A DNA stretch of 20,000 bases from an uncultured virus (IMG/VR IMGVR_UViG_3300044624_001347) (taxonomy: Duplodnaviria; Heunggongvirae; Uroviricota; Caudoviricetes): IMG/VR virus record IMGVR_UViG_3300044624_001347. One strand, given 5' to 3'. Positions 2-7,907 of the stretch are shown here, piece by piece. The number at the start of each line of letters is the position of its first letter. Position 1 is the first letter of the stretch. Under the pieces are notes generated by a model, which saw only the letters and a list, made by a program, of their open reading frames with translations, did not search any database and was not told where the DNA came from. The translations under genes were made by a program, and so were the position numbers.

Positions 2-2350
2 ATGGAGATCGCGCTCAACAACAGCGGTCGCGTTCAGATGTACCTGAACCACGGCCCACTGGCCTACGATCCGAAGACTGGCGACGTGACTGTGCGCGAT
101 GACGTGCCGGGCCTCATCGACGCCATCAAGGGTAAGCTCAACGTTGCAGACAAGAGGGAGGCGCAAGCCTATCTCGTCGCTCTTCGTGAGCGTGATCTTC
201 GTAAGGCAGGGAAGAAGGGCTTCTTCAACCTGACGGACAAGGAGATGAACTCCATCATCTCCAAGGCTGAGGCGGCGCATCCTGAGTGGAAGCAGATGGC
301 TGCTGACATTCAGCGCATCAACAAGGCGCTGCTCGACTTTGCCGTAGCCACTGGAACTCTTGATCGTGCCAAGGCTGATCAGCTTGGCAGCATGTTCTAC
401 ACGCCGTTCTACCGGCAGGCCGACGAAGATGTGAAGGACGATTCAGACGCGGTGGTTGGGCCTCGTCTGTCTCAGAGCCTCACTCGCGTTAAGAGCGCCT
501 TCGATGTCAGCGTGAAGGGCGGTGAGAATCCGCTTGGCGATCTGTTCGAGAACATGATCCGCAATGCCGACGTGATCATGAAGGCTGGCATGAAGAACGT
601 CGCCATGAGCAAGGCGGCTGAGGCATTGCAGGATGTTGGCCTTGGTCGCCCCGTGAAGACGCGCGAGACGGGCAAGACGATCACCTACCGTGTTAATGGG
701 CAGGATAAGCACTTCGAGGTTGATGACCCTGCCTTCTACATCGCTCTTGCTGGTGCGCCGCGTGAGTTCACGAACGGCATCTATCAGACGATGGCGACGA
801 TGGCGGGCTTCTTCCGCGACATGGTGACGCTGGCGCCGAGCTTCATGCTGGCGAACCTGTGGCGTGGTAAAATCATGGCGTATGTGCAGGAGGGAACTCC
901 CCTCTATGCAAATACGTTCGATGGTCTGAAGCAGGCCCTTCAGTCTAGCGCATCCTACAAGGCTATCGCCGCACAGACTGGCTTCGGCGGCTACACCTAC
1001 GGCATGGGCGAGCGTGATGCTGCTGCCGCCTTCGAGCGTGAGATTGCCGGGCTTGGCTACGGCCCTGGCGGTCTGATGCGTCGTACCTTCGATGCGCTTC
1101 AGAAGGCGAGTGAGGCCACGGAAATGGCCGAGCGCATCAAGATTTATGAGCGCATGAAAGCCCAGGGGATGAGCGACAAGGACGCTGCATTCCAGGCTTA
1201 TCTCCTTGCCCCGTTCTCTCGCAGGGGCATGGGCGGCGGCTGGATCGGCTCTACCGTCAACTGGCTCGTGCCTCTTGTGCCGTTCTTGAACGCCAAGATT
1301 CAGGGCATGTATCGCCTCATCGAAAACGAGAAGGGCGACACGCAGAAGATTTGGACGCTTGGTCTTCCCAAGCAGATGCTGCTGCGTGGCCTTGTGGTCA
1401 TGGGCCTGTCGCTGGCACTTTTTGCCAAGAACATAGGGGATGAGCCCGAGCGTTGGGACAACGAGAACCCTGATCTCAAGTTCCGATACGACATCATCTA
1501 TCTGCCAAACGACAACAGGATTCTCCTGCCCCGAGCGTTCGAGGTGGGCTCCGTCTTTGGTGCGCTGCCCGTCTTTATCCTCGACGCCATCCGTCGCAAT
1601 GACAGCAGGGACTTGAGCAAGGCGCTGGCCGATCTCGGCACCTCGACCTTCTTCTTCAATCCGATCCCCCAAGCTGCTGTGCCTATGCTGGGTGCCTTCA
1701 CGAACTACGACTTCTTCCGTAGTCGCTCGCTTGAGACGGCTGGTGATGCGAGCAAGCTCCCGCAAGAGCGCGTCAACCGCAGCACGAGCGCCGTTGCCAA
1801 GGCTATTGGTGAGACGTTCGGCGTCAGCCCGATCCGGGTTCAGTATGTGCTGGAGGGATACTCGGGCACGATTGGCTCGTCTGTTTTGGCTGGCTTCGAC
1901 AGCATCCTTGCTTCCTTCGGGATGATCCCCGGCAAGCCTGCTGGCGCCTTTGGTGATCCGATGAGCATGCCCGCCATCGCGGCTGGTCTGACTGGCGTGA
2001 GCCGCTTCTATCGGAGCGACGACCAGAGCGCGACCCGCTTCATTGGCGACTTCTACAAGATCAAGGAGATGACCGATCAGCTTGTGCGGTCTCAGAACAT
2101 GGCTATGGAGACACGCGATCTTGATCGGTTGGCAGAACTCCGTGGTGATGCGGGCCTGCCTCTGCGTCTGAGGCCGATGGTCAATCAAGCCTCGACGCAG
2201 ATCACTGAAATCAACAAGCGCATTGCCAGGATTGAACGCAGCGACCTAACCTCTGTGGAGAAGACTGAAGCCCTTCGTCCTCTGAGGGAGCAGCGTGATC
2301 GTGTGGCAAGGCGCGTTGTTGAGAGGGCAAGGGATATCGGAGCCTACTAG
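2..2350 (+). CDS. Large phage virion/ejection-type protein, C-terminal part with LPD38-like domain (probably 5'-truncated by the window)
   Basis: 782-aa ORF open from the window edge with strong coding bias. The motifs 'LVPFLNAKIQG', 'ILLPRAFEVGSVFG' and 'NYDFFRSRSL' resemble LPD38-containing large polyvalent proteins. Confidence 0.7.
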   Translation: MEIALNNSGRVQMYLNHGPLAYDPKTGDVTVRDDVPGLIDAIKGKLNVADKREAQAYLVALRERDLRKAGKKGFFNLTDKEMNSIISKAEAAHPEWKQMAADIQRINKALLDFAVATGTLDRAKADQLGSMFYTPFYRQADEDVKDDSDAVVGPRLSQSLTRVKSAFDVSVKGGENPLGDLFENMIRNADVIMKAGMKNVAMSKAAEALQDVGLGRPVKTRETGKTITYRVNGQDKHFEVDDPAFYIALAGAPREFTNGIYQTMATMAGFFRDMVTLAPSFMLANLWRGKIMAYVQEGTPLYANTFDGLKQALQSSASYKAIAAQTGFGGYTYGMGERDAAAAFEREIAGLGYGPGGLMRRTFDALQKASEATEMAERIKIYERMKAQGMSDKDAAFQAYLLAPFSRRGMGGGWIGSTVNWLVPLVPFLNAKIQGMYRLIENEKGDTQKIWTLGLPKQMLLRGLVVMGLSLALFAKNIGDEPERWDNENPDLKFRYDIIYLPNDNRILLPRAFEVGSVFGALPVFILDAIRRNDSRDLSKALADLGTSTFFFNPIPQAAVPMLGAFTNYDFFRSRSLETAGDASKLPQERVNRSTSAVAKAIGETFGVSPIRVQYVLEGYSGTIGSSVLAGFDSILASFGMIPGKPAGAFGDPMSMPAIAAGLTGVSRFYRSDDQSATRFIGDFYKIKEMTDQLVRSQNMAMETRDLDRLAELRGDAGLPLRLRPMVNQASTQITEINKRIARIERSDLTSVEKTEALRPLREQRDRVARRVVERARDIGAY

Positions 2351-2367: not shown

Positions 2368-2652
2368 GGCGATCTCCTCCATAATGGAGGCATAGCCAGC
2401 GATATCAACGTGGCTGTCTTGGTGGCCCGGCGAGTGCATCAGCCGGGCTACCTTCACCAGCAGCATCATCATGGCCGCGTCGTAGGCGTTGATCTCGGGA
2501 CTGTCGTAGTTGGGGTTCTTGCGGCTCTCCACCATCCAGTAGGTCCAGAGGGCAGCAATTCTCTTGTGGTTCTCCGTCTTGTCGCCGTAGTCCTCGGCGC
2601 GCTGACCGCCAACGAGTTCGGCTGCGTGAAGCAGCATATCAGAAGCTTTCAT
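2347..2652 (-). CDS. DUF6378-like phage protein
   Basis: Start reassigned to MKASDMLL. The pattern 'GQRAEDYGD..NHKRIAALW...MMLLVKVAR...HQDSHVDIAGYA' is typical of this family. Confidence 0.75.
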   Translation of the reverse strand: MKASDMLLHAAELVGGQRAEDYGDKTENHKRIAALWTYWMVESRKNPNYDSPEINAYDAAMMMLLVKVARLMHSPGHQDSHVDIAGYASIMEEIANKEPTS

Positions 2653-3070
2653 TCTCAAACCTCTCCTTGAGTTCCTTGAAGCGTTCACGGGCCTGTCTGT
2701 TATCTTTGAGTTCTGCCCTACTCTCCACCTCACAGAATGCTTTGAGCCCTTCGGTGCATTCCTGCTCTGAGGTGCCGAAGGCATAGCCGTTGTCCATCAT
2801 CCACTTCTGGAACTTGATGTTGCGGCAGAGCATGCCTGCGGACTGAACGGCGCGCTCGCCGTCTTCCATGTCCTTGCCTTTGACGGGCCGGTCATGGTCA
2901 TCGACGGGCAGCATTCCGACCATGTATCGCGTGCCGGGCCGGGCGGCGAGAAGATCGACCGGCACTTCATCCGGGTGGATGGTCAGGGTCATGTATGTCC
3001 CTTTTCCATCCTGCCGCATGGATGTCTTGATCGCCTCGAACTTCAGCCAAGGCTGTTTGGGTTCTGCCAT
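2639..3070 (-). CDS. Conserved phage hypothetical protein
   Basis: 143-aa ORF with an AAAGG RBS that overlaps the next gene. Contains 'AGMLCRNIKFQKWM...CEVESRAEL'. Confidence 0.75.
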   Translation of the reverse strand: MAEPKQPWLKFEAIKTSMRQDGKGTYMTLTIHPDEVPVDLLAARPGTRYMVGMLPVDDHDRPVKGKDMEDGERAVQSAGMLCRNIKFQKWMMDNGYAFGTSEQECTEGLKAFCEVESRAELKDNRQARERFKELKERFENESF

Positions 3071-3094
3071 TCTAGACCTTTCGTTCGCTTTTCA

Positions 3095-4114
3095 TGGCGC
3101 TCTCGGACGTGATGCCTCTCTCAACTCCGATGGTACTCTCAAGGCACTTGGATCACTTCCTCAAATTGGAGCTCTCTGCATCAGTGGTTCACTTGTCGAT
3201 TATGGAACTCTCGTCTGCGATGGTTCACTCGTGATCGCTGGAACTCTCGGCCTCAATGGCTCACTCATTGTCTATGGAACTCTCCACTGTGATGGTTCAC
3301 TCTCAGGGTGCGGAACTCTCTACCCGGATGGTTCACTCAGGGGCCTAGGCGCTCTCGCTAGACTTGGTTCACTCCTTCGTAATGGAACTCTCCGAACCAG
3401 TGGTTCACTCACTTACGATGGAACTCTTGACGACGATGGTTCACTCCGGCGGGATGGTACTCTTACGCCTAATGGATCACTCCAGTCTTCTGGAACTCTA
3501 CCTTGGTAGTGGTTCGATCTTAGACCGTGGAACTCTCTGGTCTCATGTCTCACTCAGGAACGTTGGCGCTCTCTGTCAGTGCGGTTCACTCTCGAACGAT
3601 GGAACTCTCCCTATGGTTGGTTCACTCCCTCCTTTTGGCGCTCTCTGGTCAATTGATTCACTCCCGAAAACTGGAACTCTCGTAAGTCATGGTTCGATCC
3701 GTGCTATGGCGCTGTCGCATTCCAAGTCTCGTTCGGGCCATATGGAACTCTCCTACGGTTTGACTCGCTCGATTACCATGAAGCTATCTTAGGCACTGGC
3801 TCACTCTGCTACGGTGGCACACTTATGTAGCGTGGTTCACTCCGACGACGCGGCACTCTCGCTTTCAATGGTTCACTCTCCACACTAGGCACTCTCATGC
3901 TCAGTGGTTCACTCGCAGTGGTTGAGACTCTTTCGTACCTTGGTTCACTTTTCGTCTGTGGAACTCTCAGCCATGATGGTTCACTCACGCGAGATGGCGC
4001 TCTCTCATATGTTGGTTCGTTCGTCGCTTGTGGAACTCTCGCGCCGCCTAGACTCACTCACTCGTCCTGGGACTTTCTTTTTCGTCTGGTTCGCTTTCCG
4101 TTTCTGGTACTCTC
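3095..4114 (-). ncRNA. TIGR-like tandem interspaced guide RNA array (28 x 36-nt dual-repeat/dual-spacer units)
   Basis: On the + strand, TGGAACTCTC-type repeats (29 copies: 3095, 3131, 3167 ... 4105) alternate with TGGTTCACTC-type repeats (28 copies: 3113, 3149, 3185 ... 4087) at an 18-nt pitch. The 56 spacers are all different (8 nt, except four of 7 or 9 nt). In the sense of the adjacent gene the unit reads GAGAGUUCCA-N8-GAGUGAACCA-N8. Strand is inferred from the operon direction. Confidence 0.9.
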
Positions 4115-4126
4115 CTGAAAGTTGAC

Positions 4127-4948
4127 TTAGCTCATCGGCCAGTTAGGCGGCGCGATGTAGTGGGCATGGCCCATGTGGGTCAGCACATACGGCTTGGGCG
4201 GCTTCTCGCCCGTCTGCACTTCCCACCAGACATGGTGAAGGTGCGAGAGGAACAGCTTCACCGCGTACCGCTTGGCTCGCGCATGAATGTGGGCAGGGGG
4301 CAGCATCTGCTGCTCGTAGAACTTCTTGGCCTGGGTATCAGCGCCAAACCGCTTCTTGCCCAGGATGGCGATGGCCTGCTCCGAGAACTCAAGCTTCTCG
4401 TTGCGAGCGGCCTCGATCTCCTTCCGCTCCTTGTAGACCTTGCCGTAGATGTCCTTCTCGTTTCCAGACACCTTCACGAAGCTCTCGCCAATCTTCCAGC
4501 ACAGCGTCTTGAGGCGAGCGTTCCAAGGACGCTTCTGCCCCTTCTCCCAGGTCTGGGTCGGATCAAGACCGGCATAGCGCCAGATGTGGCCCACGGTCGG
4601 AGCCTTGGTGATGTCGATGTGAGCCAGCAGACCAGCCGAGATGACGGGGCCAATGCCGACGATGGAGCGCGCCCAGGAGCCAACCTGATTGGAGCCGCTA
4701 TACGCATCCAGCGCACGGGCCACTTGCTTCTCAAGAACCTCACGCTGATCCATCAGCCACGTCATCACATCGGCGGGCTCCCCGGATTCAGTCAGACTGC
4801 GATGCTGGTGGGCGGCGCGAATGCGGTCCTCCTGCATGGCGTAATAGGCGTCCACAAGGAAGCGCGCCTCGTCGCTCGACAGTGTGCGGGCGGCGCTCTT
4901 CAGGTCTTTGGTCAGCCGGATGACCGGCATCAGGTCTATGTCACTCAT
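4127..4948 (-). CDS. tasA: TasA-like Nop-domain (IS110-related) RNA-binding protein, nuclease-less
   Basis: Start reassigned to MSDIDL (RBS GGAGAG; 273 aa). An N-terminal coiled coil 'LVDAYYAMQEDRIRAAHQ' is followed by 'SIVGIGPVISAGLLAHID...IWRYAGLDP', 'WNARLKTLCWKIGESFVK', 'YGKVYKERK' and 'HIHARAKRYAVKLFLSHL'. No N-terminal DEDD/RuvC or HNH domain is visible, nor the IS110 'SG' catalytic serine loop. The gene abuts the 36-nt array. Confidence 0.85.
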   Translation of the reverse strand: MSDIDLMPVIRLTKDLKSAARTLSSDEARFLVDAYYAMQEDRIRAAHQHRSLTESGEPADVMTWLMDQREVLEKQVARALDAYSGSNQVGSWARSIVGIGPVISAGLLAHIDITKAPTVGHIWRYAGLDPTQTWEKGQKRPWNARLKTLCWKIGESFVKVSGNEKDIYGKVYKERKEIEAARNEKLEFSEQAIAILGKKRFGADTQAKKFYEQQMLPPAHIHARAKRYAVKLFLSHLHHVWWEVQTGEKPPKPYVLTHMGHAHYIAPPNWPMS

Positions 4949-4973
4949 TTGTTCTCTCCGTGGTTCTTGGTAT

Positions 4974-4989
4974 GGGGGCTTTCGCCCCC
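4974..4989 (-). other. GNRA-tetraloop hairpin in the leader of tasA
   Basis: Minus strand GGGGGC-GAAA-GCCCCC, with no U-tract, 25 nt upstream of the ATG. Confidence 0.55.
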
Positions 4990-4994
4990 ACCCA

Positions 4995-5225
4995 TTAGCC
5001 CACCCGCCAGACGCGGATGTGCGTGTCGCTCTCCTGGGCCGCACGGAACGAGCCGTCGATCCCACAGTTGCGGATGAAGTTACGCATAGACGGCAGCTTG
5101 TACTCAACGCGGAAGCTGTCACCCACATTCATGGCATTCATGGTGGCGATCATGGCTTCACGCTTCTTCGACTTGCGGCCCATGTAGTTACGCGGAACAG
5201 GGACGCCTTTCTCAATCTCGAACAT
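4995..5225 (-). CDS. Small conserved phage protein (possible DNA-binding)
   Basis: 'MFEIEKGVPVP...MNVGDSF...IRVWRV' pattern common in phage early regions; RBS GGAGA. Confidence 0.7.
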   Translation of the reverse strand: MFEIEKGVPVPRNYMGRKSKKREAMIATMNAMNVGDSFRVEYKLPSMRNFIRNCGIDGSFRAAQESDTHIRVWRVG

Positions 5226-7066: not shown

Positions 7067-7432
7067 TCAGCTTTCGATGAGTGCCGCAAGCCTAGGAGGC
7101 GTCCATCCTTCAGGCTTCAAGATTTTTCCATCGGCGCGCTTTTTCACAAAGCCGGTCTCAGGATCAACCTTTGCCATATTAGACCGGATCACTTCTCTCC
7201 ATCCAGCCTCAAGCGGAAGACCGGCAGAGTGTCCTGCCCCAATGCACACGACGATGATGTCGAGAAGTGCGTCAAAAATCTCTGCCTTGTTTCTCTCTGC
7301 GACAGCCTCGAAGAGTTCCGTCATCTCTTCCATGATGAGACCGACATAGAGCGCGGTCTGCTCTTCGTTCATCCTGCCGACCGTCTGGCCGCAGGCCAGC
7401 ATGAACTTGGCCTGTTCTTCAAACACGTTCAT
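7067..7432 (-). CDS. MazG-like all-alpha NTP pyrophosphohydrolase
   Basis: 'LIMEEMTELFEA...EIFDALLDIIVV...VIRSNMAKVD...RADGKILKPEGW'; TAATG coupling to the upstream gene. Confidence 0.85.
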   Translation of the reverse strand: MNVFEEQAKFMLACGQTVGRMNEEQTALYVGLIMEEMTELFEAVAERNKAEIFDALLDIIVVCIGAGHSAGLPLEAGWREVIRSNMAKVDPETGFVKKRADGKILKPEGWTPPRLAALIES

Positions 7433-7680
7433 TAGGAAGTAAGCTCCTTCACCGTCCACATAATGCTCTCTTCAAGGGCAGTGATGCCAAGGGAGCGATA
7501 GCGCCCAGGCTTCACCTGTTCGATCAAAGCCTCAAGCTCGGAAGCCTTCGACTTGATGGCATCGTGCAAAGCCTTTTCGCTGTCGGTAAGCGCCCGGTAA
7601 CGGGGCCTAAAGCGGCTCACAGGCTCACTCACGTCGCTCGACTGCCGCCCATCGGGGGCGCCATCAAAGACATGGCTCAT
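7432..7680 (-). CDS. Acb2/Tad1-like anti-defence nucleotide-sponge protein (putative)
   Basis: 'YRALTDSEKALHDAIKSKASELEALIEQVKPGRYRSLGITALEESIMWTVKELT' follows the helical-hairpin pattern recalled for Acb2 (YRxLS..E.......K.......LI...PGR...IG.T) and Tad1 (A.T.LEE..MW). Confidence 0.65.
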   Translation of the reverse strand: MSHVFDGAPDGRQSSDVSEPVSRFRPRYRALTDSEKALHDAIKSKASELEALIEQVKPGRYRSLGITALEESIMWTVKELTS

Positions 7681-7682
7681 AG

Positions 7683-7907
7683 TCAAACTCCCTTCTTCCT
7701 CGTCAGCTTGCCCAGCATGATCTCCCCACCGGGCGACAGGGGAACCTTCTCCACCGACAGCACATGGTCTGGCAGGAGGTCGTCAATGTTCTGCAACTCA
7801 TGAACGGGGAGGGTGAAGGACCACCGATCCCCGATCCTCGTGGCGAACTTCTTGAAGTCCGTCTCGCTGAAGTCAGCCAAGCAGTTGGCCGTCTCGTGTT
7901 CGCTCAT
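7683..7907 (-). CDS. Hypothetical protein
   Basis: 74 aa, RBS AGGAAGAAGG, in operon. Confidence 0.6.
   Translation of the reverse strand: MSEHETANCLADFSETDFKKFATRIGDRWSFTLPVHELQNIDDLLPDHVLSVEKVPLSPGGEIMLGKLTRKKGV

What the first reader, a model, noticed from the sequence alone, without database searches (positions are those of the whole stretch)
3095..4114. 28 guides with unknown targets
All 56 spacers differ (seen), so the array carries information rather than being a satellite. In TIGR-Tas, spacer A and spacer B pair with opposite strands of adjacent half-sites (established). A plain BLAST of a unit would therefore miss its target. The natural targets of nuclease-less TasA guides could be competing phages or mobile elements, host defence genes, or the phage itself (inference). 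I could not search for targets by hand.
Basis: partly seen in the sequence, partly recalled or inferred. Interest (0 to 1): 0.7.

Follow-up and report, generated by a model that had tools for sequence, protein, structure and literature searches.

The report
Phage TIGR-TasA guide array, targets unresolved
A lake-water phage carries a known kind of RNA-guided DNA-binding system (TIGR-TasA) with 29 two-part guides, and searches with proper controls found no target in the phage itself or in its relatives, so what the guides aim at stays open.

Summary
The array is real. On the minus strand, window 4128-3080, two 10-nt repeats alternate with 8-nt spacers. It lies directly after a 273-aa nuclease-less TasA gene. 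That exact protein is already in the published Tas catalogue.

I correct the register. GAGUGAACCA is the edge repeat and GAGAGUUCCA the loop repeat, which gives 29 units and 58 spacers.

- Own 48-kb genome: no match with 0-1 mismatch.
- 2.03 Mb of related phage DNA: no exact match in the published geometry, and near-matches at the level of shuffled pairings.
- About 268 guides of the wider family: also no enrichment.
- Whole-collection scans: a 16-mer finds 7-9 unrelated contexts whether it is a true or a swapped pairing.

Two positive clues emerged. True pairs keep codon phase across the half-site junction (P 0.009), which suggests contiguous coding targets. A co-circulating strain shares only 8 of 29 units although its flanks are 93-98% identical.

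This is a known system, and its targets remain unknown.

The parts
4127..4948 (-). tasA: 273-aa nuclease-less TIGR-associated Nop-domain protein. The mechanical ORF 4127-5128 carries a spurious 60-residue N-terminal extension.
   Evidence: phrog_4285 at E 1.5e-60, full length. PDB sequence hits to TaTasR 9mty (E 4.9e-17) and SpTasH 21kl (E 5.8e-12), on their Nop parts only. The AlphaFold model is all-helical (pLDDT 81.6), and its 10 best PDB fold matches are all TasH/TasR chains. The start at MSD... is shared by the homologues L003 and L006. The identical sequence is in the published Tas catalogue.
3080..4128 (-). Dual-repeat TIGR array: 30 edge repeats (GAGUGAACCA type, the first and last truncated), 29 loop repeats (GAGAGUUCCA type) and 58 spacers, making 29 tigRNA units.
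   Evidence: Parsing. Same 10+8 architecture and repeat pattern as the SpTIGR array of Salicola phage CGphi29. No Rfam family matches.
4115..4128 (-). 5' end of the array: truncated edge repeat AAGTCA (4128-4123, overlapping the tasA stop codon TAA at 4129-4127), then the first spacer ACTTTCAG (4122-4115).
   Evidence: One search shows the sequence before the first full repeat. The L003 variant has the same AAGTCA followed by a different 8-mer. SpTIGR starts the same way with AGTCA.
3080..3094 (-). 3' end of the array: last spacer TGAAAAGC (3094-3087), then the 3'-truncated edge repeat GAACGAA (3086-3080). It runs straight into the ribosome-binding region of the next gene.
   Evidence: No terminator-like site was found on the minus strand between the array and the next gene.
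3628..3653 (-). Unit 13 (spacers ATTGACCA / AAAGGAGG). Its rebuilt target AAAGGAGGTGGTCAAT reads like a Shine-Dalgarno site plus spacer plus AT(G). The unit is kept unchanged in the variant array.
   Evidence: It has 47 exact matches in 31 unrelated contexts in the viral collection, many of them at gene starts.
3375..3400 (-). Unit 20 (spacers CTGGTTCG / TTACGAAG), flanked by perfect repeats and kept unchanged in the variant array. Its rebuilt target contains a complete edge-repeat variant (AAGCGAACCA).
   Evidence: It has 16 exact matches in 7 contexts in the viral collection, which is the chance level.
2639..3070 (-). Downstream gene (143 aa, phrog_5358, function unknown) on the same strand. 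It starts 10 nt after the array.

Best explanation
This is a canonical dual-repeat TIGR-TasA system of the SpTIGR architecture (10-nt repeats, 8-nt spacers) in the early/replication gene block of a 48-kb lake-water podophage.

Inferred from homology and the literature:
- The array is transcribed with tasA on the minus strand.
- TasA binds the precursor and cuts it in the middle of each edge repeat with its conserved Tyr/His pair (Y254/H261). This gives 29 different 36-nt tigRNAs of the form AACCA-A8-GAGAGUUCCA-B8-GAGUG.
- A TasA dimer carrying one tigRNA opens a 16-bp DNA site. Spacer A pairs with one strand and spacer B with the other, so one target strand reads A + reverse complement of B.
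- Having no nuclease, it stays bound and blocks transcription, and perhaps replication.

Shown here: the guides do not address the phage's own genome or the sampled genomes of its relatives.

Inferred here: they address protein-coding DNA of similar G+C from outside this phage lineage. That would be the unknown host or unrelated elements sharing that host. The repertoire is exchanged unit by unit between co-circulating strains.
For: Identity of the system:
- TasA is homologous to solved TasR/TasH Nop domains by sequence and by fold.
- There is no nuclease domain: 273 aa, all helices, and Pfam gives only a weak Transposase_20 match.
- The processing pair Y289/H296 of SpTasH aligns with Y254/H261. 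The junction pair W203/K211 aligns with W151/K159. Y254, H261 and K159 are invariant and W151 nearly invariant in 10 homologues.
- The array architecture equals SpTIGR.
- The exact protein is in the published catalogue.

Function of TasA as an RNA-guided repressor: Xu 2026 preprint, sections 12-13, read.

Geometry A + rc(B):
- An 8-nt 3' overhang together with the C-5 rule (Faure 2025).
- The first paired guide base sits at the unwinding junction (Guan 2026).

Register:
- Truncated GAGUGAACCA-type repeats lie at both ends.
- The repeats resemble the SpTIGR edge and loop repeats.
- 9 of 11 exchange breakpoints against the variant array fall in that repeat type.

Not self: 0 matches with 0-1 mismatch in the 48,151-bp genome, and 2-3-mismatch counts equal those of 756 non-cognate pairs.

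Not kin:
- In 182 loci (2,028,515 bases), geometry Y gave 0 exact matches. One-mismatch hits per gap class (-1 to 2) were 0, 0, 3 and 2, against 1.0-1.9 expected.
- Family-wide, 0 exact and 60 one-mismatch hits against 1.7 and 49.1 per permutation.

Coding targets: cognate pairs in the right register keep codon phase at gap 0. z is 2.37 and P 0.009 in 228 de-duplicated units, positive in 3 of 3 lineages. The other two phases and the wrong register give nothing.
Against: - No target was found, so targeting of anything is inferred, not shown.
- No RNA data exist for this locus.
- The simple scan found no promoter or terminator, and the array is not followed by the terminator described as typical.
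- Several units sit between degenerate repeats (for example units 1-3 and 10-11) and may be dead.
- The codon-phase signal is modest: P is about 0.03 after correcting for three phases. It cannot tell geometry Y at gap 0 from geometry X at gap -1 or +2.
- Relatives were sampled only within 10 kb of four marker genes, so parts of kin genomes were not searched.
- The mismatch tolerance of this TasA is unknown.
Confidence: 0.6

Rival explanations
1. The guides aim at closely related phages, for superinfection exclusion or competition between kin. This was proposed for other TIGR-TasA phages in earlier notes of this scan.
For: - A kin phage at 84-90% nt identity lacks the system and carries another cassette at the same site, so carriers and non-carriers coexist.
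- Two array variants coexist in the same runs.
- Earlier notes e1-6035223 and e1-6197240 report kin matches elsewhere.
Against: - In 2,028,515 bases of 182 kin loci, geometry Y gave 0 exact matches. One-mismatch hits were 5 in all, at two sites in redundant loci, against about 5 expected.
- The only near-site checked lies in AT-rich distant kin, and our own gene is unlike it there.
- About 268 guides of the family gave 0 exact matches in 2,071,236 bases.
- The kin cassette itself is not matched.
Confidence: 0.1
2. The guides regulate the phage's own genes, acting as a self-directed repressor for timing of expression.
For: TasA is a repressor in reporter assays. The locus sits among early genes on the same strand.
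Against: There are 0 matches with 0-1 mismatch anywhere in the 48,151-bp genome, in either register or geometry, with gaps 0-2. Counts at 2-3 mismatches equal the controls.
Confidence: 0.03
3. Guides are written from, or aimed at, TIGR array DNA itself (array-against-array conflict or a trace of how units arise).
For: - The target of unit 20 equals 5 nt + the full edge-repeat variant AAGCGAACCA + 1 nt. A 10/10 repeat match occurs in 1 of 29 cognate pairs against 1 of 812 non-cognate pairs.
- The unit is kept in both array variants.
- Earlier notes e1-6077640 and e1-6077653 describe such guides.
Against: - It is one unit only.
- The own array has 4-5 mismatches at the nearest junctions (my reading).
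- None of the 16 exact hits in the viral collection looked like an array (my reading of the flanks printed).
- In 268 family units, a full repeat appears in 1 target against 0.2 expected, and 9/10 matches in 3 against 2.0.
Confidence: 0.05
4. The array no longer targets anything. It would be a decaying or neutral remnant, or it would serve a role that does not need sequence-specific targets.
For: - No target was found.
- Some repeats are degenerate.
- Spacers shared with the variant array differ at about the rate of the flanks: 8 changes in 15 shared spacers (my count), against 96.0% nt identity in tasA.
Against: - The array is letter-identical in 3 independent contigs.
- All 24 listed lake-water runs hold 85% or more of the sampled words of window 3000-5000.
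- TasA keeps all tested functional residues.
- All 58 spacers are distinct, and similar pairs are depleted (2 against 6.4 expected).
- Cognate pairs keep codon phase, which a neutral array would not.
Confidence: 0.07

Closest known systems
SpTIGR-TasH of Salicola phage CGphi29 (PDB 9W03, 9W04, 21KL; Faure 2025; NAR 2026 gkag743)
   Same: - Phage-borne array directly downstream of tas.
- Two alternating 10-nt repeats of the same pattern ([G/A]AG..., ending CCA) with 8-nt spacers.
- A start with a truncated ...AGTCA edge.
- The Nop domain aligns (E 5.8e-12), with the Y/H processing pair and the W/K junction pair conserved.
   Different: - Ours has no HNH domain, so it binds DNA without cutting.
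- Protein identity is about 30%.
- It has 29 units.
- No terminator follows the array, whereas SpTIGR ends in a hairpin and a T-run.
Dual-repeat TIGR-TasA (FpTasA of Flavonifractor plautii, Faure 2025) and the TasA repressor MbTasA (Xu 2026 preprint)
   Same: Solo coiled-coil plus Nop protein with an adjacent dual-repeat array. The expected activity is RNA-guided DNA binding and transcriptional repression.
   Different: - FpTIGR uses 9-nt spacers (18-bp targets), ours 8-nt (16-bp).
- I made no direct sequence comparison with FpTasA or MbTasA, because their sequences were not at hand.
- The tested MbTasA came from a Minisyncoccota bacterium, not a phage.
TaTasR (PDB 9MTY)
   Same: Best solved sequence relative of the Nop part (E 4.9e-17). 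It has the same fold and the same tandem-spacer logic.
   Different: TaTasR carries an N-terminal RuvC nuclease and 9-nt spacers, and its repeats start with UG. Our loop repeat has AG at that place.
Nuclease-free CRISPR interference (type IV, type V-M), named by Faure 2025 as functional analogues
   Same: Element-borne arrays of guides that silence without cutting. This comes from the discussion of Faure 2025, read.
   Different: The proteins are unrelated, and there are no cas genes. The guide is split and reads both strands, no PAM is needed, and no adaptation genes are known.

Membership tests
TIGR-Tas (dual-repeat class) | Tas protein with a Nop domain related to TasR/TasH | tested here: met
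   PDB sequence search gave 9mty E 4.9e-17 and 21kl E 5.8e-12. The 10 best fold matches are all TasH/TasR chains, TM 0.57-0.66. phrog_4285 matches at E 1.5e-60.
TIGR-Tas (dual-repeat class) | Array of two distinct alternating 8-12-nt repeats with 8-9-nt spacers, 36-nt unit, next to tas | tested here: met
   29 loop and 30 edge repeats of 10 nt. Of 58 spacers, 54 are 8 nt long. The array starts inside the tasA stop codon.
TIGR-Tas (dual-repeat class) | Box C (CCA) at the 3' end and box D (UG) at the start of both repeats | tested here: inconclusive
   CCA: of the 29 GAGAGUUCCA-type (loop) repeats, positions 8, 9 and 10 are C, C and A in 27, 29 and 25. Of the 28 full GAGUGAACCA-type (edge) repeats, they are C, C and A in 22, 28 and 25. 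UG is present in the edge repeat (U in 21 of 28, G in 28 of 28) but reads AG in the loop repeat. SpTIGR also departs from UG.
TIGR-Tas (dual-repeat class) | [quoted passage not shown] | tested here: inconclusive
   Truncated edges are present at both ends. No terminator-like site lies on the minus strand after the array, and the next gene starts 10 nt later.
TIGR-Tas (dual-repeat class) | C-terminal Tyr/His pair that matures the pre-tigRNA (SpTasH Y289/H296); absent from stem-loop systems | tested here: met
   The pair aligns with Y254/H261, both invariant in 10 homologues. Their role is taken from passages of NAR gkag743 and from Xu 2026 section 10.
TasA subtype | No RuvC or HNH domain | tested here: met
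   The protein has 273 aa. Residues before the Nop match are two long helices, and the model is all-helical. Pfam gives only Transposase_20 at E 1.3e-4.
TIGR-Tas (dual-repeat class) | Processing into 36-nt tigRNAs and RNA-guided binding of DNA that matches both spacers | not testable with these tools
   No RNA run holds the locus. This needs small-RNA sequencing and binding assays.
TIGR-Tas published catalogue (Faure 2025, supplementary file 3) | The protein is listed | tested here: met
   Rows 185 and 219 of sheet ProteinInfo carry the identical 273-aa sequence. The variant of L003 is listed too.
CRISPR array | One repeat of about 25-36 nt, spacers of similar size, and cas genes | tested here: not met
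   There are two alternating 10-nt repeats and 8-nt spacers. None of the 28 window ORFs scanned has a Cas family.

The most novel reading that the evidence does not exclude
The array is a fast-turning, modular silencing repertoire aimed at protein-coding genes of the phage's unknown high-G+C lake host, or of unrelated phages of that host.
- The half-sites of true pairs keep codon phase, so natural targets are contiguous 16-bp coding sites.
- Co-circulating strains swap whole units at the edge repeats: only 8 of 29 units are shared although the flanks are 93-98% identical.
- This implies an unknown mechanism that writes or exchanges two-part guides without any adaptation genes.
- The unrelated 43-kb phage G005 shows a geometry-specific excess of near-matches and could be a first natural target.
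Probability: 0.25. Interest if true: 0.75.

Novelty: already known. Interest (0 to 1): 0.38.

Why it matters
What TIGR guides aim at in nature, and how arrays gain guides, are the two questions that the discovery papers leave open (Faure 2025 discussion; Xu 2026 discussion). I found no paper in the library that reports natural targets.

This locus does not answer them, but it narrows them:
- Self-regulation is excluded for this phage.
- Kin targeting is unsupported for a whole TasA family.
- Exact 16-mer hits in large collections are shown to be uninformative unless swapped-pair controls are run.
- A sequence-only statistic, codon-phase coherence of the two half-sites, points to contiguous coding targets. 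It also supports the published geometry for natural guides.

The phage is complete, recurs in many lake-water runs and has two array variants. It would be a good field case once its host is known.

Tried and rejected
- **Own genome.** I scanned both registers and both geometries, with gaps 0-2. Nothing matched at 0-1 mismatch.

- **Kin loci.** I scanned 244,123 bases, then 1,043,530, then 2,028,515. There was no enrichment. One exact hit appeared in the non-published geometry X at gap 1 (unit 8, L233:3634), in a Thr/Ala/Gly-rich gene. Exact hits in geometry X were expected at about 0.08, so I read it as chance.

- **One-mismatch hits of unit 8.** Three distant AT-rich kin (L181, L190, L203) carry one shared site. 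Our own gene is unlike it at that position, so I rejected it.

- **Whole viral collection.** Unit 13 gave 47 hits in 31 contexts, explained by its ribosome-binding-site look. Unit 20 gave 16 hits in 7 contexts. The swapped controls gave 10 hits in 8 contexts and 9 in 9. The eight-member cluster for unit 20 is a G+C 0.42 phage family. No other guide matched the two records of it that I fetched whole.

- **Metagenome collection, unit 8.** The largest context (51 stretches) includes gut-labelled records, so this is noise.

- **One-base overlap of the half-sites.** No A/B position covaries in 24 units of the first-assigned register, which turned out to be the wrong one. None covaries in 268 correct-register units either.

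- **Gene-start reading.** My count finds ATG or CAT in about 9 of 29 rebuilt targets, close to a rough hand estimate of 36% for random 16-mers. I made no formal test.

- **Array-directed guides.** Not recurrent in the family.

- **Host identification.**
  - The window holds no tRNA.
  - TasA relatives occur in two Acidobacteriota MAG contigs, at only 60-67% identity.
  - The nearest cultured phages infect different hosts, at 58% TerL identity or less.
  - No host could be named, so host genomes were not searched.

- **Other blanks.** Megablast against phage records found nothing. No RNA holder was listed among the sequencing runs. The simple promoter/terminator scan found nothing on the minus strand. 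Rfam gave no match.
Full report
**Observation**

Window 3095-4114 holds a strictly periodic array. Read on the minus strand, which is the strand of all neighbouring genes, it has 57 ten-nt repeats of two alternating types. Their consensus sequences are GAGAGUUCCA and GAGUGAACCA. They separate 56 spacers: 52 of 8 nt, 3 of 9 nt and 1 of 7 nt. All 56 of 56 differ. Pairs of spacers that differ at two positions or fewer are rarer than in shuffled spacers: 2 observed against 6.4 expected. Tandem Repeats Finder reported only the best-kept stretches, and Rfam has no family for the region.

**The protein next to it**

The ORF 4127-5128 (minus) begins with 60 residues of junk. The conserved start gives a 273-aa protein, 4127-4948.
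- It matches phrog_4285 over its full length (E 1.5e-60). That family is annotated as a transposase.
- It matches the Nop parts of the solved TaTasR (9mty, E 4.9e-17) and SpTasH (21kl, E 5.8e-12).
- An AlphaFold model built on 10 homologues (mean pLDDT 81.6) is all-helical. Its ten best PDB fold matches are all TasH or TasR chains, followed by IS110-family recombinases.
- There is no room or signal for a RuvC or HNH domain, so it is a TasA.
- The Tyr/His pair that matures the precursor RNA in SpTasH (Y289/H296) aligns with Y254/H261. Its role comes from passages of NAR gkag743 and section 10 of the Xu 2026 preprint.
- The aromatic-basic pair at the DNA unwinding junction (W203/K211; Guan 2026 preprint section 5) aligns with W151/K159.
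- Y254, H261 and K159 are invariant and W151 nearly invariant in the 10-sequence alignment.
- The identical 273-aa sequence stands in the Tas catalogue published with Faure et al. 2025 (supplementary file 3, rows 185 and 219). The gene is therefore already known as a tas gene.

**Register and extent**

Three lines of evidence show the opposite.
1. A truncated AAGTCA and an 8-nt spacer precede the first full repeat, overlapping the tasA stop codon. A spacer and a truncated GAACGAA follow the last one. Faure 2025 (section read) describes this arrangement for edge repeats.
2. The experimentally studied array of Salicola phage CGphi29 has the same 10+8 build and starts with a truncated AGTCA. Its edge repeat AAGCGAGCCA resembles our GAGUGAACCA, and its loop repeat AAGACAACCA resembles our GAGAGUUCCA.
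3. A variant of our array in a strain with 96.0% identical tasA DNA (L003/L004) shares colinear blocks with ours. Nine of 11 block boundaries fall in GAGUGAACCA-type repeats.

The array therefore spans 4128-3080 and holds 29 units and 58 distinct spacers. Mature guides would read AACCA-A8-GAGAGUUCCA-B8-GAGUG. That form is inferred.

**Geometry**

Two published statements fix how a target is built.
- Cutting leaves 8-nt 3' overhangs, with the cut 5' of the base paired to guide position 5 (Faure 2025).
- The first paired guide base sits at the outer unwinding junction (Guan 2026).

Both require that one target strand reads A followed by the reverse complement of B (geometry Y). I still scanned the other order (geometry X) and gaps of -2 to +2 as comparisons.

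**Genome context**

The window is the reverse strand of positions 13559-33558 of a single 48,151-bp viral contig.
- The genome encodes large and small terminase, portal, tail proteins, a 2258-aa virion protein, a primase-helicase, ERF, RusA and an Acb2/Tad1-like protein.
- None of the 49 ORFs I scanned (28 of the window, 21 of the rest of the genome) has an integrase family.
- Its nearest cultured relatives are aquatic podophages, at 58% TerL identity or less.
- All 24 listed public runs, all labelled lake water metagenome, hold 85% or more of the sampled words of window 3000-5000. Ten of them may be the source of this DNA.
- No host could be named.

**Target searches**

Own genome. There is no match with 0 or 1 mismatch in either register or geometry. 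In the correct register and geometry there are 2 matches with two mismatches and 29 with three. For 28 non-cognate pairs (scaled from 756) the expected figures are 2.2 and 28.1. The two terminal units were covered.

Relatives.
- I fetched 17 viral and 2 MAG loci around TasA homologues.
- I fetched 80 of 581 TerL relatives, 3 primase relatives and 80 of at least 599 relatives of a virion protein. Each locus carries up to 10 kb on each side.
- In these 182 loci (2,028,515 bases), geometry Y gave no exact match. One-mismatch hits at gaps -1, 0, 1 and 2 numbered 0, 0, 3 and 2, against 1.85, 1.04, 1.04 and 1.18 expected from 784 non-cognate pairs.
- The five one-mismatch hits are two sites repeated in redundant loci. 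One involves the 7-nt spacer. The other lies in AT-rich distant kin, where our own gene is unlike it.
- One exact hit occurred in geometry X at gap 1, against about 0.08 expected. I read it as chance.

Whole family. I parsed 18 further arrays of the same build from the relatives. All unique 8+8 units, 268 in the later count, were scanned against 2,071,236 bases that included our genome.
- Exact hits: 0, against 1.7 per permutation.
- One-mismatch hits: 60, against 49.1. Most are one site seen in several redundant loci.
- The controls were not de-duplicated, so they run slightly high.

Whole collections.
- The rebuilt 16-mers of two units kept in both array variants found 47 stretches in 31 contexts (unit 13) and 16 stretches in 7 contexts (unit 20) in the viral collection.
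- The two swapped pairings of the same four half-sites found 10 stretches in 8 contexts and 9 in 9.
- Unit 13 reads AAAGGAGG-TGGTCA-AT, a ribosome-binding site and the beginning of a start codon. Many of its hits are unrelated gene starts, which explains its excess.
- Exact 16-mers are thus found by chance in about eight unrelated viral contexts each. This agrees with the remark in Xu 2026 that short spacers give many false positives.

**A weak lead**

I fetched five records holding the exact unit-20 site in full. Four show nothing. The fifth, G005, is an unrelated 43.3-kb phage of G+C 0.63.
- It has 5 gap-0 hits with two mismatches or fewer, against 0.71 in 5000 permutations (P 0.0026).
- With gaps 0-2 it has 9 hits against 2.46 (P 0.0014).
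- Geometry X (3 against 2.48), the wrong register (0 against 2.35, and 1 against 2.41) and the three-mismatch threshold (7 against 9.96) show no excess.
- After allowing for five records tested, and for the hit that selected the record, the corrected P is about 0.01-0.03. I report it as unexplained, not as a target.

**Signals inside the guides**

- No position of A covaries with any position of B. All 64 complementarity frequencies lie between 0.19 and 0.32 in 268 units (the 24-unit check used the wrong register). The half-sites therefore do not overlap in this family, unlike what earlier notes of this scan proposed for other arrays.
- Units whose two spacers are nearly reverse complements of each other are slightly more common than expected: 14 of 268 against about 8.1. 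In our array these are units 8, 16 and 22.
- Codon phase. I scored each rebuilt 16-mer with the codon-position base frequencies of this phage's long ORFs (G+C 65, 47.5 and 67% at positions 1-3). I compared true pairs with permuted pairs within each lineage.
  - True pairs in the right register are more coding-like when the halves abut: z is 2.64 and P 0.0025 in 249 units.
  - After removing similar units, z is 2.37 and P 0.009 in 228 units. The three lineages give z of 2.25, 1.53 and 0.68.
  - The other two phase relations give z of -0.85 and -1.65.
  - The wrong register gives z of 0.86, -0.61 and -0.19.
  - No strand is preferred: 126 of 228 units favour the sense reading.
  - The test cannot separate geometry Y at gap 0 from geometry X at gap -1 or +2. 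After correction for three phases, P is about 0.03.
  - I read it as a suggestive sign that natural targets are contiguous pieces of protein-coding DNA of similar composition.

**Array evolution**

- Three independent contigs carry the array letter for letter.
- The L003/L004 strain has tasA 96.0%, the downstream gene 98.3% and the upstream 750 bases 93.1% identical in DNA. Yet it shares only 8 of our 29 units: 7 with two mismatches or fewer, and one with three. It has about 15 units of its own.
- No unit is shared with TasA loci at 81% protein identity or less.
- Contigs of both array forms occur in the same lake-water runs. In X24, two records cover 3680-3827, one with 13 differing letters at depth 11.6 and one with none at depth 5.3. 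X23 shows the same pattern.
- A joint at 3515/3618 in X22 and X24 carries 30 inserted letters. By my reading they are the reverse complement of the L003 sequence. These are low-depth contigs, so this shows presence only.
- A kin phage at 84-90% DNA identity has, exactly in place of tasA plus array, a 1.7-kb cassette of two unknown ORFs and four short repeat-rich non-coding blocks. The locus is therefore a swap site.

**Verdict**

The finding is a correct recognition of a TIGR-TasA guide array. The kind has been published since 2025, and this very protein is catalogued.

It came out negative for the phage itself and for its sampled relatives. Whole-collection scans of three guides were uninformative, and hosts could not be tested.

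What is new here is small:
- a corrected register (29 units);
- a swapped-pair calibration of chance hits;
- the absence of half-site overlap in this family;
- a modest codon-phase signal;
- unit-wise turnover between co-circulating strains.

Noticed in passing
L153:19200-20902 (kin phage; corresponds to window 3074-4966): A relative at 84-90% DNA identity carries a 1.7-kb cassette exactly in place of tasA plus array. It holds a 198-aa ORF (phrog_4652, unknown), a 168-aa ORF with no family, and four 100-150-nt non-coding blocks with short C/T-rich periodic repeats. Each block ends in CAACGCAAYGT plus a ribosome-binding site. The flanking genes are the same as ours.
   Followed up: partly
window 7432-7686 (-): An 84-aa protein has an Acb2/Tad1 hairpin domain (PF24729, E 9.8e-15). 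That family consists of phage sponges for host immune signalling nucleotides. It lies 2.5 kb upstream of tasA in the same gene train.
   Followed up: no
window 3375-3400 (-), unit 20: The rebuilt target TTACGAAGCGAACCAG equals 5 nt + the complete edge-repeat variant AAGCGAACCA + G. Spacer A is also complementary to the GAACCA end of the repeat just before it. A 10/10 repeat match occurs in 1 of 29 cognate pairs against 1 of 812 non-cognate pairs. It is not recurrent in 268 family units.
   Followed up: partly
window units 8, 16, 22 (spacer pairs at about 3843-3818, 3555-3530, 3338-3313): In three units, spacer A is close to the reverse complement of spacer B. The target would then be an imperfect tandem direct repeat, and the guide could fold on itself. 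In the family this occurs in 14 of 268 units against about 8 expected.
   Followed up: partly
G005 (record behind L249), positions 779, 8935, 29521, 36310, 42561: There is a geometry- and register-specific excess of near-matches (two mismatches or fewer) to our guides in an unrelated 43-kb phage: 5 against 0.71, P 0.0026. Two of the hits are at gene-start-like sites ...GAAAGCCATGA.
   Followed up: partly
L011:2326-4009; L013 and L014 (five and six arrays each): Relatives of this TasA carry much larger or multiple arrays of the same 10+8 build. One has 96 repeats in a single array, and others have up to six arrays spread over 10 kb. Their repeats are lineage-specific: GAUCGAGACA/GAGAGAACCA and GAGCGAGCCG/GAGAGUGCCG.
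   Followed up: partly
window 3080-4128, spacers: Spacer G+C is 52% (217 of 416 bases), while the surrounding genome runs at 55-61% per kb. The first spacer base after CCA is T in 22 of 52 spacers, and the third is G in 21 of 52.
   Followed up: no
window 2-2350 (+), continuing in G000 to a 2258-aa ORF: A giant virion-type protein has an LPD38 domain (PF18857, E 5.2e-22) and a weak N-terminal match to virion RNA polymerase (phrog_2206). It converges on the tasA operon.
   Followed up: no
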